Positions 1 through 9,715 are shown, counted from the stretch's first letter. The stretch is 9,715 nt of DNA from Azolla caroliniana (GCA_043228905.1 JBHGNT010001340.1:1-9715), one strand, 5' to 3'. Numbers and translations are program-made. The notes: a model not told the origin generated them from the sequence alone.

Positions 1-198
1 AGCGAGATCAATCTACAACATCCTAGTACGTACCTCCAAGTTGCTGATATATTTACGAAGGCCTTAGGAGTTGACAAGCTCAGGCAATTTGCATTGGACC
101 TTGGTGTCACGACATCTATATTGCCGACCTTGAGGGGGAGTACAGGTACAGGCGACATGGAAGCAATACGCAACGATACGCAACACATACGCAATTGA
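1..198 (+). pseudogene. pol: C-terminus of copia Pol (RNase H end), partial; not in the supplied ORF track
   Basis: Manual translation: SEINLQHPSTYLQVADIFTKALGVDKLRQFALDLGVTTSILPTLRGSTG...HIRN* (TGA 196-198). The ADIFTKAL motif is diagnostic of copia RNase H. Confidence 0.9.
130..140 (+). other. Canonical copia-type polypurine tract (TTGAGGGGGAG), not adjacent to the LTR
   Basis: Matches the common plant copia PPT that follows RNase H (read in frame as LRGS), but lies about 150 bp upstream of the LTR start. Confidence 0.5.
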
Positions 199-283
199 TC
201 GAGTATGCGAGTACGCAACACAAAAGATTAGACAAGTCAAAGTACGAACTGAACAACCTTCTCGACAGATAGAAGTTGTGTCC

Positions 284-292
284 GAAGGGGCA
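284..292 (+). other. LTR-proximal polypurine tract (GAAGGGG plus CA spacer)
   Basis: Purine run directly before the TG that starts the 3' LTR at 293. Confidence 0.65.
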
Positions 293-400
293 TGTTGAGA
301 GTCGAACTCAACTTCCCATAGATAGGTTTCACACTAGCTCATGGACATGTTGGGCTAGTTTTGTAAATAGTAGAAAGGGCACTTGCCCTAGCTTAGTAGG

Positions 401-408
401 TATATAAA
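401..408 (+). promoter_or_regulatory. TATA box in LTR U3 (TATATAAA)
   Basis: TATATAAA about 110 bp into the LTR; conserved in the other LTR at 5021-5028 (minus strand). Confidence 0.55.
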
Positions 409-495
409 CCAACGCATTGTAACTTAGTTATAGTTGGATGTTTTATGTTTGATGTATGTTTGGTTAATATACAGTTTTTCTATCTTTGCCTTAAG

Positions 496-497
<2 letters not shown>

Positions 498-530
<33 letters not shown>

Positions 531-560
531 CTGTTGCCTCACACACACACACACACACAC
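498..560. repeat. (CT)n and (CA)n microsatellites inside the 3' LTR
   Basis: Visible CT run at about 498-525 and CA run at about 540-560. Confidence 0.95.
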
Positions 561-613
561 TCTTAATCTTCTTCCGCTGCATTGCAATCACTCTTGCCTC
601 CCATTCTGTTACA

Positions 614-618
614 AGCAC
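614..618 (+). repeat. Target-site duplication, copy 1 (AGCAC)
   Basis: Immediately follows the CA end of the 3' LTR; its reverse complement GTGCT abuts the other LTR at 5136-5140. Confidence 0.88.
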
Positions 619-1104
619 CTAATGGTGCATGTGGGATGATTACACTCAATGAGAGAGAGAAGCGCCAAGTTCAAAACTTTGAACATTGGCTAAAAGAACA
701 AGGAATATTAGAAGAAGAAGACAACATATCATGGGTCATGGAGGAAGCCTCATTTAACGATACAATCAGAGAAATAGAGAGTATAGTGGACTTGAGCCCG
801 CATGAGCAACATACGATTCAAGTAAACTCCATCAACATGTATACCGCCATCGATGAATGCCGACGAGGGGTCATGGAGGAGTTGGTCAAAGTAAACACAA
901 AATATAAATTAGTAGATAAGAAGGTCAAACCAGTAACTATTCCGTTACCGGAGGATAGTTGGCAAAGGATGAAAGAAGTTACCAAGGATCCAAGTCTCAG
1001 AGACCCAAAAGGGATAGGTGATACCTTCACCGACGAATCAAGAGGGAAACTCCGAGTCGGGAAGGATGGCTTCCTTCTCCCCGAAGAAGAAGAAAGGTTT
1101 CAGA
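614..1104 (+). pseudogene. Ty3/gypsy-like pol fragment, region just upstream of RT, truncated at about 1104
   Basis: Open frame APNGACGMITLNE...KYKLVDKKVKPV...GFLLPEEEERFQ resembles the pre-RT segment of some gypsy-type Pol proteins (from recall). It is in frame with the 5141-5238 minus-strand flank across the TSD. Confidence 0.65.
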
Positions 1105-3340
1105 TCACTTGGTCATTCCGAACTTGTAGAGTAAGTTGAGGACGTAGTGCCGTTGTGAGATCATTATCTTGATTGGTGTCCAAATTACTTCAATGCCTAG
1201 GAAGTAATGGAGTTCGTGTAGGTCTTGCATTTCAAATCTATCGGAGAGAAGTGTTTTGACTTTGTTGATCTCGGCAAGATCCTTTCCTCCGATGACCAAG
1301 TCATCCATGTATAGGATGATGATGATCGGGCTATCCGACTCATTTCGGATGTACAGAGAAGTATCGGATTTTGACATCCGAAATCCGACTTGCTGAAGAT
1401 ATTGCGTGATCTTCGAATGCCAAGCACGCGGTGCTTGTTTGAGGCCATAGAGTGGCTTCTTGAGTTGGCATACCACGTGCAAATGTTTACGCAATTCGAA
1501 TACGGGTGGTTGTATCATGTACACCTCTTCTTCTAACTCTCCTTGGAGGAAGGCATTTTTCATGTCCATCTGGTGGAGGTGCCATTCTTTCACTACGGCG
1601 AGTGCAATTACTGTCCGTATAGTTGTCATCTTTGCCACCGGGGCAAAGGTTTCTTCGTAGTCTATGCCATGCGTTTGCGCGTAGCCTTTCGCAACGAGCC
1701 GTGCTTTAAAGCAGTTTACAAAGCCGTCGGCATTGTATTTTACTTTGTATATCCATCTGCAACCAATCACTTTCTTGTTGGGGGGGAGAGGAACGAGATC
1801 CCATGTCTCGTTTTTGCATAAAGCATCCATCTCCTCGTTCATCCCGTCGACCCATCGCGAATGCTTTGCGGCTTCGGAAAGCGTTTCTAGTTCCTGTACT
1901 GACGCTACTTTCATCATAAAGGCGTAGTGATACGCCATGTACTCGTCGTAGCCATAGCGGTTTACGGGGTTCTTTTCGCGTCTGGATCGGCGTAGCTCTC
2001 GATCCGTGGGGAGTATGGCTTTCTTCACTCCATCTATGCGGATGTCGAGATCTTCAAGTTCACTGTCAAGAGAGTGAAGCATCTCGGTCTCTTCATGATC
2101 TTCATATTCCTGCATTTTCGCCTTCCCTTTGTCCAACTTTGGACTCGGCCGAGATGTGCTTTCATTGCTCGGCGGCTCTGATGGCCGACTCAACCGTGTC
2201 GTAATTGGGTTGTCTTTTAAGATCTGTGGGAGCCGATCCTCAGCTTCTATTTCTATTTCAGTGTCATCCGCGTCGAGCGGGGTTGAAGTCGACGTATTCT
2301 CTAGTGCGTACCAAGATGCATATTCGTCGAAGACTACGTCTTGACTTGTTCGAACCTTACATGTAGATGGGTTGTAGCATTTGTACCCCTTCCGTTCAAG
2401 TGAGTATCCTACGAGGATACATTTCTCCGACATTGGGTCAAGCTTTTGCCGCGTACCGTCGGGAATATGTACGTAGGCGATAGAACCGAAAATGCAGACA
2501 TGTGACAAGTTCGGCTTCTTTCCGAAGAATTTCTCATGCGGAGTTATATCATGTACTGCCAAGGTTGTGCACTTCTTCATGAGATATACGGTCGTATTTG
2601 CCGCTTCTGCCCAATATGATTTCGGCAGGTTCTTCTCGTTTATCATGGCTCGTGCGACTTGTACTACATGGCGATTTTTACGCTCTGCTACGCCATTTTG
2701 CTGAGGCGTGTGTCGACATGAGAACTCTCGTCGGATTCCTTCTTTTCGGAGATACTCCATAAATTCATCCGAAAAATATTCTTTGCCTTCATCTGATCGA
2801 AGACAGCATACATGCCGACCCGTAGTTTTTGGACTTCAGCTTTGAATTTCTGGAAGTGCCTGAACACTTCACTCTTCTGGTTCATCGGATAGATCCAAGT
2901 GTTCCTGGAGAAGTCGTCAATGAACGTGACATAGTATCGGCATCCGCCAAATGTTGTTGTCTGGGCTGGTCCCCACACATCTGAATGTACGTCACCCAGG
3001 AAGTGCCTAAACACATTCACTCTTCTGCTTCATCGGATAGATCCAGGTGTTCCTAGAGAAGTCGTCGATGAACGTGACATAGTATCGGCATCCGCCAAAT
3101 GTTGTTGTTTGAGTTGGTCCCCACACATCTGAATGTAGGACATCCAGGATTCCTTTGCTCACATTCTGCCCTTTAGGGAATGGGTGATTGCGTTGCTTTA
3201 CGAACTGACATGCTTCGCATACGCCTGTAATCTCCCTCGCCGTAAAGTTCGGTAGTCCAATTACGACTCCTTTCAATTGCATATTCTAGAGCTTTTGGAG
3301 ATTGTTGTGGCCGATTCTCTTGCGTCATAGCTTCAAGTCG
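1105..3340 (-). pseudogene. pol: copia Pol integrase plus reverse transcriptase; frameshifted and truncated before RNase H
   Basis: Integrase motifs CEACQ, LHSDVWGP, FIDDFSR, TPQQNGVAERKNR and VGYSLERKGYKCY. RT motifs KARLVAKGYAQTHGIDYEETFAPV, QMDMKNAFLQG, LYGLKQAPRAW and LYMDDL. Stops near 3288 and 3325, frameshift near 2828. Confidence 0.95.
2852..3149. repeat. Tandem duplication of about 147 bp within the integrase core
   Basis: GGAAGTGCC starts at both 2852 and 2999. HSDVWGPxQTTTFGGCRYYVTFIDDFSRNTWIYPMxQKSE is encoded twice. Confidence 0.95.
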
Positions 3341-3357
3341 GTTTCGACTTTCTGGCC

Positions 3358-4712
3358 CTATGCAAACACGGCCGACTTGATATCGCTCGATCCGCGGATG
3401 AACATACGGCCTTCACGATGGTCGTGAGCTATGACTTGATCGCCTTTCTCGATGAAGCACCCATCGTTATTGAAGCGTACTTGCATTCCTTGTTCAACAT
3501 TTTGGCCAACCGAGACTAGGTTTTTCATAATAGTGGGGACATGCAGCACGTTTTTGAGGTAGTTCTGTTTGCCGTCGTTTCTGAATGGGACGTTCCCAAT
3601 ATGCTGTATTGGGTGAGTCGTGTCATCTCCTGTTTTGACAGATCTGGGACATTCGGGCTTCCGTAGTTCCCGAAACCAATATTCATGGGATGTTTTGTGA
3701 TTGGATGCTCCCAAATCGACAAACCATACATTGTTCGGAGTGGAAGCGGTAGTTGACGCAAGCGCGGACATTGAGTGTGCTTCGTGCTTTGTTATGAACA
3801 TTCTGTCACGATTGTCGTAGTTGCAGTTCGTGGCATAATTTGTTAGTTTTCGGCCTTGCTCACACTTCTTCCTCCGACACTCCTCTTCGTAGTGGCCGGG
3901 TTTTCCACAGTACCCGCACTCAACTGGGTTCCTACGGTTTCTTGGTTCAGCGTGATGACTCCGCCTTCCGCCGAACTCTTTGGGGCCGTTTTTGTCCGCT
4001 TGCCATTGGTGGGAGTTATGCTCTTGGTTGTGTTGGCCTTGGCCAAATCGACCTCTCCTTGCACTGCTTTTGTCCTCTTCTTCCATCGAAGTTCGAATAT
4101 AGCATTTGTCTATCATACGTGGTGTTCCTTTGACGCTCGTGATTCTCTTCAACTAGCAACAATGATTGGAGATCAGAAAAGGAGGGAGGATTCTCTCTCG
4201 CGAGAACGGCCGATCTTATTGTGCCAAATCACGGTGCCAAGCCACCGAGGCATATCTGCACCATTTCTTCGTCGTCAATGCTAACATTGATCAATCCAAG
4301 GGCATCGCACAACTCCTTGATCTTTAAGGTGTAGTTGCCGATTGACATGTCCCTTTGTTGAAGATTGTTCAGCTCCTGTCGAAGTTGGAGATTTCGTGTG
4401 GTTGTAATGGCTGCGAAAATCTTCTTGAGGTTTTCCGATGCCTCCTTTGGCGTGTTTGCCTCTCGACTATAGCCAAGCATATGATCATGAACGCATGATG
4501 CAAGGCAATACAACACACGGCTTGCAGCCTGCTCCCAATCAGGATAGTCGGCGTGTGTTGGGTTGGGTTGTGATTTGTGAGCTCCTTCGATGTAGCTCCA
4601 GTAGCCTTGTCCGACAAGGTATTTACTATTGATGCATCTTGTATTTCCAAGATGCAAAGTTTGCTCTATCGAGCTTCTCGGTAGGAAGAGTGCTTCCCAT
4701 TTGAGTATTCAT
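3358..4712 (-). pseudogene. gag: copia Gag (UBN2/Retrotran_gag_2-like plus zinc knuckle) and aspartic protease, frameshifted
   Basis: ATG at 4712 gives MNTQMGSTLPTEKLDRANFASWKYKMHQ, then YLVGQGYWSYIEG. Zinc knuckle CGYCGKPGHYEEEC (CX2CX4HX4C). Protease WFVDLGASNH (DSG changed to DLG) and LKNVLHVPTIMKNLVSVGQ. Confidence 0.92.
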
Positions 4713-4801
4713 GGTGATTTCTTCTCTATTGACGGGCCGGTTCTGTTGATCGTCGGCGTGCAACACAACAAAATCGAATAGGCTTAATTAGGCAACCACA
4801 C

Positions 4802-4813
4802 GCTCTGATACCA
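4802..4813 (-). other. Primer-binding site for initiator tRNA-Met (TGGTATCAGAGC)
   Basis: The minus strand reads TGGTATCAGAGC directly after the CA end of the 5' LTR. Confidence 0.95.
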
Positions 4814-4898
4814 TGTCACAGAATGGGAGGCAAGAGTGATTGCAATGCAGCGGAAGAAGATTGAGAGTGTGTGTGTGTGTGTGTGTGTGTGTGAGGCA

Positions 4899-4932
<34 letters not shown>

Positions 4933-5135
4933 CTGAAGGTAAATATAGAAATAACTATATTTTGACTAAAAATACATCAAAAATAAAACATCCAACTATA
5001 ACTAAGTTACAATGTGTTAGTTTATATACCAACTAAGCTAGCGCAAGTGCCCTTTCTACTTTTACAAAACTAGCCCAACATGTCCATGAGCTAGTGTGAA
5101 ACCTATCTATGGGAAGTTGAGTTCGACTCTCAACA
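4814..5135 (-). repeat. 5' LTR of the copia element (322 bp)
   Basis: Minus strand reads TGTTGAGAG...TGTGACA, is followed by the PBS, and is homologous to 293-613. Confidence 0.95.
4867..4930. repeat. (GT)n and (AG)n microsatellites inside the 5' LTR
   Basis: Visible GT run at about 4867-4893 and AG run at 4901-4930. Confidence 0.95.
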
Positions 5136-5140
5136 GTGCT
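5136..5140 (-). repeat. Target-site duplication, copy 2 (AGCAC on the minus strand)
   Basis: GTGCT directly follows ...CTCAACA on the plus strand. Confidence 0.88.
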
Positions 5141-5440
5141 AAATATAGTTTTCCTTCTTGCTTCTTTCTTCTTTTCAAGGACTTACTTTTTCTCGGACGA
5201 TCTTTGCCCCATTCTTCAATAGTCTGTGTTAAAAATCTGAGGCCTCATCTCTGAGGTTATCTTGGTTCCTCTCGTGATTAGCTCGCACTGTCAAGAATTG
5301 AACCAACTTTTGACCATCAAGACTCTTCACCCGAGCGAATGTTGCTCCACTATCGAACACCTTAGTCTCCATCCTTGATGATGTTATGTAGGGTTGCCCA
5401 AGAATCACCGAATGTGAAGCCAAATCTTGCGCAAAAAAGT
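5136..5440 (-). pseudogene. Ty3/gypsy-like fragment: C-terminal half of the aspartic protease, end of ORF1 and start of the pol frame; 5'-truncated at about 5440
   Basis: FFAQDLASHSVILGQPY resembles the retropepsin ILG motif. ORF1 ends EASDF* at 5229. A second frame, RFLTQTIEEWGKD...KLYLA, runs open up to the TSD. Confidence 0.7.
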
Positions 5441-5632
5441 CCCATAATAAGCCCTATTCCTCCCCTCTTATAGAGGACAAGGGCGCCTATATTAACATTA
5501 CATGCTTTTTCTTTTTCCTTTACTACAAAAATGGAACGGGAGCAAAATACTCCTTAATTCATCACAAGAGAGTCTTGAACTCTACACCTCCCCATGTATA
5601 CTTATAAGCCTTAACCACTAAGCTACTACAAC

Positions 5633-5649: not shown

Positions 5650-7237
5650 ATTTTCATTCATATATTACTTTATGACATGTGCGTCAAGCTTCACTTTTTC
5701 TCACACTACACACGCCACACCACGACAACATTATATGTACATAACGCTAATTACCCCTTTGTTTGTTTGTGTTTTGTGTGTTACCATTACACAATGAATA
5801 TCAACAACAATACATTATATTATATTCAAAATGAGATCACACTAATCACTTATACAATAATTCATTTTAATTGAAAGGATGAAGCCAAAGTATTGCCATT
5901 CAATCAACACTATGGATAAAATTGAGCTAAATGATATACACAAGAAACCAAAAAATGTGGAAAATGGCTATAGAAAAGATCAATGACAATATGGAAATTG
6001 TGAACAACATATTGAATGTTTTATGTATTATATCGTGAAGTTTTTCTTTTATAGTTAGTTGCAATCGTAATGGTGGAAATTGGTGATCATTTTTGCTAGT
6101 ACAATTGATATTGATCTTCAAGTACTATAGTAATGACCTGAAGTTGCAACTCGTGTTTACTTATGCCTTTTGCAAACATAAAGAAGATGTGTGAAACATA
6201 CTGAAACCCAAAGAAACATGGTGACAAATCAACACATTTATTTGGGTTTTGGTATGTTTATGCCTTCATGTTTATGTTTCGTATACAAGAAGTTCAACAT
6301 TCATCTCTAACTTTAATGTTAGCTTGAAAAATAAGTTTTAAGCCTCACAAAACCAACCACAATTTGGATGTGGCAAGCCAAATTGCGAAAGTTCATAGTG
6401 AGAGGGCAAGGAATTATAATTTATGACTATGATTGCATTAGTTATATATTGTAGCAAACTTGCTCTTTCTTTCCTTTAAGTTGCATAGTTCTCCCATATA
6501 CTTCTATGGGTTGCACTATCATACCAAGTAGGTCATTAGGGACACATCTTTATTGCGGCCTCATCAAATTGTAGTCATATAGCAGAATGAAACATTCAGT
6601 GTTATTAAGAGGGCATTGTCAATATTCCTTTGGTACAATAGTCTACATTTTGCACGGGTTCCTACCTTTGTTATACATTGATCGTCTTCAAAGTATCATC
6701 TCTTCTAAGATTTAAGTTATACATTGACCCTTCAATTCCTTTTCCTTGTTATCACATTACAACACACTTGTAGTTCAACTTGCTCGATGAGTACATGATA
6801 GTATGTAATGGACATGTCACAATGTAACGAGAGTTCTGTCATCACAATCATCAGTCATGAAAATAGATGGTGATGGATTGGGTGACTAGAATTGGGCACT
6901 TGGATCTATTTCATCATAAATAGTTTATAGTTGGTTAGGAAATAGAGGTTTCCAAACAACAAATGTGTTTTAAAAGTAGGGTTATGTTGGTGCTTATATT
7001 TGGCATAGAAAATTTTGTGACCATTAGCAATGTGATAAATCATGTAGGAGATGTGGCACTGGTGTTTGTAACTGGGTGGTTACACTAAGGTATAATGAAG
7101 CATGGCACACGCTTTGATGGGAAGTCATGAACTGACGAACATAACAAGGAGGTGGTGTGTGGGATGACGAAACATAAACAATACACCTTTACATTACAAA
7201 AGTTTTGTTGTGAAGGGCTTGGGATTATCATAGAGTC

Positions 7238-7264
7238 TTTTTTTCTTTTAGTAAAACTTTTATT
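7238..7264 (-). terminator. LINE polyadenylation signal and decayed poly(A) tail
   Basis: The minus strand reads AATAAA (7264-7259), then AAAAGAAAAAAA (7249-7238), about 70-90 bp after the ORF2 stop. Confidence 0.7.
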
Positions 7265-7330
7265 GCTAGTGGGAAACCTCAAAGTGAGGTGAAAACCCAC
7301 AAAGAATAAAGAAAAATATACAAGTGTCAA

Positions 7331-9715
7331 TTAGACACTAAAGAGCTTAAAAGCACTCAAAGCAAAGGTTGTAATTTTGGAGTGTGATGTCTCTAAGTTG
7401 CAAACAATCAAATAGAGATTGCTTGAGGGACTGCTTAAGAAGCTAACTTCATGCAGTTGGTTTTGATCAAAGACCTTATTATTGCGGGCTGTCAAAATGG
7501 TCCAAAGTGCCCAAAATCGTGTCCATTGGAGAAAATAGGCATTGTCGGATAGGGCGCATGGAATTTGTCCAAATATCCAAAAGTGTTTACCAAACCTTCG
7601 GCCAGGAAATCTGTGATAAAGAGATGCACTTAGTCGTTGTACAAATGTTATAGTGAATGAACAAGTCCATAATAAGTGTGGGATTGTTTCCAATCGTCCA
7701 CCACATCTTGCACAATGTGGCGAGGCTATCGATCGCTTTTGAAGATTAGACCCAGTCGAGAGCACACCCAATAAGCATCTCCATAGGAATACCCGTTGCT
7801 TAAGTGGAAGACCAGAGCTCCATAAGCTTGCAAGCCTGTTATTCCACCAGGACTGCATTTTGTGTAGGTTCCATAATGCATTTGCACGCTCGTGAAACCA
7901 TGGGACAGGTTGCAACAACATATACACTGAATGTGTTGTAATGTTATGCATTGGAATAACAGTGTTCCCTTTTTGTAACATCCAATCTTGAATCCTGCGA
8001 TCTCCATTGAGAGGTGGCACAGGTACTAATGAAAGCACCAACTCAGTGACTTGATTCCATATAATGCGATGATGTGGCCCAAGATTATAGCGACATGTCA
8101 TGTCATTGAAATGCAATAAGTGACCTTGGTCATTTACCACATCTACAATTGATTTCAGCCCCTTCTTTGCTAAAAAATAAGCTTTCCTAGGCTCTTGTTC
8201 AGCTAATGACTGTGGGAATATAGCACTCCAGTCTAAGCTTTCGAGGCGTAAAGAGTTCCTGATTCTGAATTCCTACCTCTCCATTTTATGTGGTGCAATA
8301 TGTCCTTCCAGTGCTTTAGAAGCTTTGAGCTAAACGGACAACCTTTGATGTGCCTGTCAAGCTTTCCAAACACTACATCCCAATGATTAGTTTCCCATGA
8401 GCCAAATGACTGAGTTTTTAAATGATCAAACATATCAGATAGCATTCTTGCCCAAGGCAATGTTTTTTCAGCAAATTTCGGCAATAAAGTAGCTTTTCTA
8501 GCCAACATATGCAAAGGCAAATTAAGAAAAATTTTCCCTCCACTCAATCGTGGAGTGCATATCTTCTCTAGTATTAAAAGTCGTATACCTCTATGCGACT
8601 GCTTAGAGCACCAAAAGTTGCTTATGATTTCTGAGTTAATCTTTTGTATCATGTGTTTCGGCCAATCAATCATAATTACATAATACTGCATATAAGCCAT
8701 GAATATTGATTGCACTATCCTCAATCTGACATGGAGTGGCCATGTTGCAATCTTCCAATAGCTTAGCTTTTGTCTCACTTTTTGCAGAACCCATTCAGCC
8801 TTTCTTTTCCCTGTTGCATTCCATCCCAATGGATAGCCAAGATGTCTAACCATTTCATTTGGGCTAACAACCTGACCTGGCCACAGAAGTTGATGCCAAC
8901 TATATGGCGTCAAGGGTAGAAGTTTGGACTTGTTGAAGTTAACATGCAATCCAGTAGCCAATCCATACAATTTGAGGGCATCCATAATCACCCTCATATC
9001 ATTTGGATTGTTTTGTGATAGGAATGATGTATCATCTGCATATGCTTGAGCCACAAAATCATGTTCGTCTTTCATTTGCAAACCATTAAGTTGACCAATT
9101 GATACTAGATTATCCATGCACAATAGTAGTGGATGATCCATGTAAGTGCATACAACAATGCACTTATAGGACAACCTTGTCGTACTGATTTGGCTAAGCT
9201 CCATGAATCTGTCAATTCACCCTCAATAATGCATGAAGATGTGCTAGACCCATAAAGCCAATAGATTACTCGAGACATTTTTGGACCAAATCCTAGTTTG
9301 ACCATTGTGGCTGCCACAAAATCCCATTGGATGGTGTCAAAGGCCTTTTCAATCTCAATTTGCATGAGCAATACATCTTGTTTGGTGTATTTGGCATACT
9401 CCATTCCAATATAAGCATTGGCAATATTATCTATAATTTGCCTTCGAGGAATGAACCCATACTGGGTTTACGTGTATGCATCCCAACAAAGTGTCCTTAA
9501 TACGATTAGCAATTATCTTTGCAATAAGTTTGTAGATCACTGGCATGAGAGTGATTGGTCGCCAATCTGAAAAGGATTCACACAGTTTCTTTTTGGGTAT
9601 TAATTTGACCAAACCTTCTTTCCATGAGATCGGCATATCCCATTGTTGCCAAGCATTATTTGCCATAGATGGGATTAAATCCTTAAGAACATCCCAAAAT
9701 TCTGTAATGAACTCT
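7331..9715 (-). pseudogene. LINE ORF2 (RT plus zf-RVT), partial, with at least three frameshifts
   Basis: Motifs LIPKK...WRPITL...YKLIAKIIANR, QYGF, IEKAFD, VRQGCPIS, YADD, GLHVNFNKS, HLGYPL, CARCGGRLETIPHLLWTC and ARNNKVF. Frame changes near 9465, 9140 and 8257. Confidence 0.93.

What the first reader, a model, noticed from the sequence alone, without database searches (positions are those of the whole stretch)
293..5140. One copia insertion split in two: inverted LTRs that share a single TSD
Seen: the LTR at 293-613 (plus) is a 3' LTR, preceded by RNase H and a PPT and followed by AGCAC. The LTR at 5135-4814 (minus) is a 5' LTR, preceded on its own strand by AGCAC and followed by the PBS. 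Known: the LTRs of one element are direct repeats bounded by a 5-bp TSD. Inference: these are the two ends of the same insertion, and the segment carrying late RT, RNase H, the 3' LTR and the downstream flank has been inverted. The halves are complementary, since the minus half lacks the RNase H that the plus half supplies. Structure-based LTR finders would miss this element.
Basis: partly seen in the sequence, partly recalled or inferred. Interest (0 to 1): 0.8.

Follow-up and report, generated by a model that had tools for sequence, protein, structure and literature searches.

The report
Dead copia retrotransposon split by inversion
Two opposite-facing halves of one old plant jumping gene share a single insertion scar inside another jumping gene, likely because about 1.7 kb of DNA was flipped in a break-repair accident; this is an ordinary kind of small rearrangement, and no independent reads have yet confirmed the join.

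Summary
Observation confirmed. LTRs at 293-613 (+) and 5135-4814 (-) are 95% identical. One has a PPT, the other a PBS, and both carry AGCAC on the outer side.

The decisive new test: in 7 of 9 related Ty3/gypsy loci the two outer flanks are contiguous around a single AGCAC. The two LTRs are therefore the two ends of one Ty1/copia insertion site in a gypsy pol.

The join lies exactly at 1105|1106, with no microhomology and no filler. About 617 nt of copia RT-RNase H is unaccounted for left of the window. Best reading (0.62): a later ~1.7-kb inversion by blunt end joining.

This keeps alive a one-event inverted duplication or multi-break rearrangement (0.22). Misassembly is not excluded (0.10): no genome is held, and the runs laid do not hold this copy.

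The scan noted a similar split gypsy element in another genome. Ordinary structural variant, low interest. Side lead: a candidate -1 frameshift signal between protease and RT in the host gypsy lineage.

The parts
1..292 (+). 3' end of copia pol (RNase H end by position), 3' UTR and polypurine tract
   Evidence: tblastn hits at 4-216 from C-termini of copia polyproteins P0014, P0016, P0035, P0038, P0057; purine run before 293
293..613 (+). copia 3' LTR (LTR-A), TG...CA
614..618 (+). target-site duplication copy AGCAC
614..1105 (+). downstream flank D: Ty3/gypsy pol between protease and RT core, cut at 1105
   Evidence: 91-97% DNA identity to L001-L006; 63-65% protein identity to P0001-P0003
1105..1106 (.). 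blunt junction between gypsy pol (+) and copia RT (-): 0 bp microhomology, 0 bp filler
   Evidence: native gypsy continuation in 7 of 9 loci; loose ends at 1105 in 3 of 4 runs and at 1106 in 4 of 4 runs
1106..4813 (-). copia internal 5' half: PBS, gag, protease region, integrase, RT cut near the end of RVT_2; decayed by stops and frameshifts; ~148-bp tandem duplication at 2852-3149
4802..4813 (-). primer-binding site TGGTATCAGAGC (tRNA-Met type; the tRNA assignment is recalled)
4814..5135 (-). copia 5' LTR (LTR-B), TG...CA
5136..5140 (-). target-site duplication copy AGCAC
5136..5440 (-). upstream flank U: end of the gypsy protease region and start of the pol frame, contiguous with flank D in intact gypsy copies
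   Evidence: 94-96% identity to L001-L006 and L009; weak aspartyl-protease Pfam hits on L001/L007, E 0.01-0.015, below cut-off
5440..5441 (.). second break: gypsy protease region cut and joined to unrelated DNA
   Evidence: alignment to the window stops at 5440 in 8 of 9 loci, which continue upstream

Best explanation
One Ty1/copia retrotransposon inserted into a Ty3/gypsy pol region and made the 5-bp duplication AGCAC, and a later break-repair accident likely flipped about 1.7 kb that held the end of copia RT, RNase H, the 3' LTR and 492 bp of gypsy flank. Shown: normal LTR ends with PBS and PPT; the two flanks are one site in intact gypsy copies; the 1105|1106 join has no homology and no filler; both flanks have the same nearest relative. 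Inferred: two double-strand breaks (one in copia RT, one in gypsy pol) rejoined in reverse by non-homologous end joining; a reciprocal join about 617 nt left of the window start, possibly with some loss; and a separate truncation of the gypsy at 5440. The element is predicted to be dead. LTR divergence of 5% dates the insertion, not the inversion.
For: Empty site with one AGCAC in 7 of 9 loci, and a 15-of-15 match of a loose end at 614 to flank U in run X5. L001 is the nearest relative of both flanks (U 4.0%, D 3.5% mismatches). Private changes are 11 of 300 in U and 13 of 487 in D. Within the window the halves do not overlap: RT stops at residue 869 of P0016 and the plus-strand piece starts at 1077, leaving 616-619 nt in 5 of 9 proteins. 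The two TSD copies face opposite ways, as expected if the flank moved after integration. The join has no shared letters, no palindrome (longest match 4 nt) and no N in the window, which argues against repeat-collapse or fold-back artefacts.
Against: The reciprocal join cannot be seen (no genome). No listed contig bridges 1105|1106. That is uninformative: the best run holds only 0.35 of the words, at some sites all laid depth differs from the window (e.g. 800, 1020), and the tables were cut. The second break at 5440|5441 needs an extra event under this reading. The rank correlation of U and D distances across 7 loci is only suggestive (rho 0.70, p 0.077). A 6-nt match lies 4-5 nt off the junction (read; rough chance about 0.07), so synthesis-dependent microhomology joining is not excluded.
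Confidence: 0.62

Rival explanations
1. One complex event: segment 1106-5440 (copia 5' half plus flank U, 4.3 kb) was copied or cut out and laid down in reverse behind flank D. The joins at 1105|1106 and 5440|5441 would be the two ends of one inverted duplication or multi-break rearrangement. If copied, a complete copia would lie left of the window.
For: It explains both non-homologous joins with one event. CNV-flanked inversions are the largest class of complex variants in human data (PMC5338099, passages). Templated filler DNA in cis is known in plants (PMC7156093, passages).
Against: No target duplication frames 1106-5440 (3-11 bp tested, 0 of 9 match) and no homology links the two joins. 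The DNA after 5440 does not match up to 2.8 kb of downstream gypsy sequence. Truncated LTR elements are very common (10.1101/137141, passages), so an independent truncation is cheap.
Confidence: 0.22
2. Assembly or library artefact: a chimeric read or a mis-oriented contig produced the 1105|1106 join.
For: Both sides of the join, and one side of the second break, are high-copy repeats, where assemblies break (depths). No independent bridge was seen.
Against: No overlap or homology at the join, no N, and no palindrome. A fold-back read would mirror the sequence at the join rather than skip ~1.7 kb (inference). No other note in this genome fits the words inversion/misassembly.
Confidence: 0.1
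3. Two independent copies of the copia family in opposite orientation with a chance TSD match, or an aberrant inverted-LTR cDNA inserted by integrase.
For: The family is high-copy in related runs. The scan noted an inverted-LTR copia insertion in the same genome (e1-10619871; not tested).
Against: The flanks are one contiguous site in 7 of 9 intact gypsy loci. Two gypsy copies each hit at the same 5 bases is very unlikely. An integrase-inserted inverted product would have direct TSD copies on its outer ends and no host flank inside; here flank D lies inside and the TSD copies face opposite ways.
Confidence: 0.03

Closest known systems
Nested and truncated Ty1/copia LTR retrotransposon (structure as in LTR_retriever, 10.1101/137141, passages read; domain order as in Neumann et al. 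2019, PMC6317226, passages and section 13 read)
   Same: TG...CA LTRs, 5-bp TSD, PBS, PPT, GAG-PROT-INT-RT-RH order, about 5.1-5.3 kb when the halves are added, inserted in another LTR element.
   Different: LTRs are inverted in the present genome and the 3' half with its flank is displaced, so the direct-repeat criterion is not met.
Small inversions and CNV-flanked inversions (canonical, delINV, dupINV classes; Collins et al. 2017, PMC5338099, passages read)
   Same: Reverse-oriented segment with a non-homologous join and nearby extra breakpoints.
   Different: Human data. Here only one of the two inversion joins is visible and the class cannot be fixed.
Rearrangements traced through broken Fatima LTR retrotransposons in wheat (Bariah et al. 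2020, PMC7156093, passages read)
   Same: A retrotransposon and its flanks are used to find breakpoints; blunt or microhomology joins are read as NHEJ or SD-MMEJ.
   Different: Mostly deletions between two species; here a kilobase-scale inversion within one element.
Arabidopsis hk4S inversion (Fransz et al. 2016, PMC5113708, passages read)
   Same: An inversion recognised from a sequence split between two breakpoints (an F-box gene).
   Different: 1.17 Mb and attributed to Vandal5 transposase; here no transposon end lies at the join and the segment is about 1.7 kb.

Membership tests
Ty1/copia LTR retrotransposon | [quoted passage not shown] | tested here: met
   gag, Pol_BBD, rve (weak, below cut-off), SH3, RVT_2 in that order on the minus strand; C-terminal piece on the plus strand
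Ty1/copia LTR retrotransposon | Copia-type RT (RVT_2) | tested here: met
   E 3.3e-74, profile positions 1-233 of 244
Ty1/copia LTR retrotransposon | TG...CA LTR pair, PBS after the 5' LTR, PPT before the 3' LTR, 4-6 bp TSD | tested here: met
Intact LTR retrotransposon (structure-based definition) | LTRs as direct repeats around one continuous internal region | tested here: not met
   LTRs are inverted; RT is cut at 1106
Named copia lineage (Ale, Ivana, Tork, Bryco etc.) | Placement in the REXdb RT/RH/INT tree | not tested
   no reference set fetched
Simple (canonical) inversion | One join between two native sequences in opposite orientation | tested here: met
   1105|1106
Simple (canonical) inversion | Reciprocal join at the other end, copy number unchanged | not testable with these tools
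   lies about 617 nt left of the window; no genome held
NAHR (repeat-mediated) inversion | Long inverted homology at the breakpoints | tested here: not met
   0 bp shared at the join; the two sides are unrelated copia and gypsy sequence
Transposase- or integrase-made inversion (hk4S type; inverted-LTR cDNA) | An element terminus at the join | tested here: not met
   both sides of 1105|1106 are internal coding sequence
Inverted duplication / templated insertion | A second, complete copy of the duplicated segment nearby | not testable with these tools
   would lie left of the window; no TSD or linking homology between the two joins

The most novel reading that the evidence does not exclude
Both joins (1105|1106 and 5440|5441) come from one local shattering or long templated-copy event that rebuilt a nested retrotransposon cluster, leaving a 4.3-kb inverted copy of the copia 5' half and its flank. 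The TSD and the empty site would then make this a base-resolved record of a complex rearrangement in a likely non-seed plant genome.
Probability: 0.2. Interest if true: 0.3.

Novelty: new member of a known kind. Interest (0 to 1): 0.15.

Why it matters
Little by itself: it is one dead element in repeat-rich DNA and no gene is touched. It is a clean worked example that a TSD plus an empty-site comparison can tie two inverted LTRs to one insertion and fix a breakpoint to the base. Such elements fail the direct-repeat criterion of structure-based LTR finders (an inference from that criterion; no finder was run) and could be miscounted as two fragments. A genome-wide screen for inverted LTR pairs with matching TSDs would give a datable catalogue of kilobase inversions.

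Tried and rejected
Own genome: none held, so the left side was not seen.

Sequencing runs: 15 listed, best share 0.35. Five distinct runs were laid (X1, X3, X4, X5; X1, X2, X4, X5). No bridging contig appeared in the rows shown. Tables were cut and this copy seems absent from the runs, so this is no evidence either way.

Copia RT against viral contigs: 0 of 4 candidates confirmed. No TSD or homology links the two joins. No tRNA gene in the window.

Look-ups of earlier findings by place (near, relatives), by sequence and by misassembly words gave nothing.

Paper searches for a TSD-linked, inversion-split LTR element gave 0 papers, 2 Drosophila papers and 1 Dictyostelium review; listings only. 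The library lacks most subscription journals, so absence is weak, and supplements were not read.

Rejected: NAHR (no homology), transposase or integrase origin (no element end at the join), two independent insertions (empty site).

Full report
Observation. The window holds two copies of one LTR in opposite orientation: 293-613 (+) and 5135-4814 (-). They align end to end with 299 matches, 16 mismatches and 13 gap columns, K2P 0.053, and both run TG...CA. The plus copy follows a purine-rich tract and is followed by AGCAC. The minus copy is preceded by AGCAC and followed by the PBS TGGTATCAGAGC. On the minus strand lie copia gag, Pol_BBD, integrase pieces, SH3 and nearly all of RVT_2. On the plus strand, bases 4 to about 216 match the C-terminal end of copia polyproteins. 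The window has no N.

Same insertion site: shown. The stretch after the 3' LTR (614-1105, flank D) is Ty3/gypsy pol, 63-65% identical to RT-bearing polyproteins P0001-P0003. A scan of metagenome contigs gave 9 gypsy loci. In 7 of the 9 (L001-L006, L009), flank U (5440 to 5136, minus) runs directly into flank D, overlapping by exactly the 5 bases AGCAC. L007 is too diverged at the site, and the match to L008 starts only at 750. Contigs of run X5 show the same: a loose end before 614 equals flank U at 15 of 15 letters. L001 is the nearest relative of both flanks (12 of 300 and 17 of 487 mismatches). Private changes are similar on the two sides (11 of 300 and 13 of 487 against six loci, L009 left out because of its internal duplication). 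The rank correlation of distances is suggestive only (rho 0.70, p 0.077, 7 loci). The two LTRs therefore mark the two ends of one copia insertion site in one gypsy copy.

The junction. Gypsy sequence matches the window up to 1105 and continues differently in 7 of 9 loci. Copia sequence matches from 1106 and continues differently in 4 of 4 runs; the protein breaks in the motif KFGMTECK. No letter is shared and none is added. A 6-nt match lies 4-5 nt off the join (read); a rough chance estimate is 0.07, so it is inconclusive. There is no palindrome at the join. The gypsy side lies about 80 residues before the RT core. Of 9 copia proteins tried, 5 reach both halves; they leave 616-619 nt between the RT break and window position 1, so a simple inversion would span about 1.72 kb. 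Adding the halves gives an element of about 5.26 kb, or 5.11 kb without a 148-bp tandem duplication in integrase.

A second break. The gypsy is also cut at 5440|5441: 8 of 9 loci stop aligning there, and the seven close ones continue upstream with different sequence. The DNA beyond is AT-rich and starts with a possible tRNA-derived SINE (Rfam tRNA 17.3 bits, E 3.3, below threshold). It matches no fetched gypsy sequence. It can be an independent truncation, which is common (10.1101/137141, passages), or the other end of a single event that laid 1106-5440 down in reverse. No target duplication or homology links the two joins.

How it most likely arose. Step 1, shown: normal concerted integration of a copia into gypsy pol. 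The 5% LTR divergence (16 of 315; 95% interval 2.9-8.1%) gives about 2 or 5.5 million years under two assumed, recalled rates; this dates the insertion only. Step 2, inferred: two breaks about 1.7 kb apart were rejoined in reverse by end joining, the usual route of break repair in plants (PMC7156093, passages). Step 3, inferred: separate loss of the gypsy 5' part. I put this at 0.62, a one-event inverted duplication or multi-break event at 0.22, an artefact at 0.10, and independent copies or an aberrant cDNA at 0.03.

What could not be tested. No genome is held, so the reciprocal join is unseen. The best sequencing run holds 0.35 of the words. At several sites all laid depth differs from the window, so this copy is likely absent from those runs, and the lack of a bridging contig in the listed rows says nothing. 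The host is likely a non-seed plant: earlier scan notes on this genome say fern or moss (unchecked), and the best-scoring named non-repeated copia hits include Adiantum at 61%.

Comparison with what is known. Nested, truncated LTR elements are the norm. Inversions recognised from a split sequence are known in plants (PMC5113708, passages). Inversions with flanking gains or losses are a catalogued class (PMC5338099, passages). I found no paper on exactly this configuration in four searches (listings only), which is weak evidence given the library's limits. The scan itself noted a TSD-linked split gypsy element in another genome (e1-10356341) and a different inverted-LTR copia in this genome (e1-10619871). 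The latter is described as one scar around an inverted product; here the host flank lies inside the rearrangement.

Verdict. A real feature in the assembly, correctly spotted, and ordinary: a new instance of a known kind of small structural variant in dead repeats. Interest 0.15.

Noticed in passing
window 5238-5178 (minus); L001:2640-2710, L007:720-790 and homologous stretches of L002-L006, L009: Candidate programmed -1 ribosomal frameshift between protease and RT in the host gypsy lineage. The protease frame ends at TAA right after the heptamer GGATTTT (AGATTTT in the window) in 8 of 9 loci, and the pol frame overlaps in -1. Three bases after the stop a possible H-type pseudoknot (8 + 5 bp) is 95.6% paired over 7 distinct rows, with one-sided changes only and no two-sided covariation; the structure was drawn from these same sequences. 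A GAG-PROT / RT-RH-INT two-ORF layout is known in plants (PMC6317226 section 13); one search for this signal gave no specific paper (listing only).
   Followed up: partly
window 5632-5441 (minus): Possible tRNA-derived SINE: box A/box B-like head at 5632-5560 (Rfam tRNA 17.3 bits, E 3.3; fold z 0.17), ending without a tail at the 5440|5441 break.
   Followed up: partly
window 6174-6279: 106-nt imperfect hairpin (z -5.5, 0 of 200 shuffles) with only sub-threshold miRNA matches; may be a MITE remnant or a miRNA-like stem.
   Followed up: partly
window ~7237-9715 (minus): Decayed LINE ORF2 (RVT_1 pieces and zf-RVT) with an AATAAA and A-rich tail near 7237-7265.
   Followed up: no
window 2852-3149: About 148-bp tandem duplication (92% identical) inside the copia integrase, breaking the frame.
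   Followed up: no
L009:1155-1901: This gypsy locus carries a tandem repeat of about 340 bp that includes the same AGCAC site and the frameshift region.
   Followed up: no
window 498-560 and 4866-4930: Both LTRs carry adjacent (CT)n and (CA)n microsatellites that differ in length between the copies.
   Followed up: no
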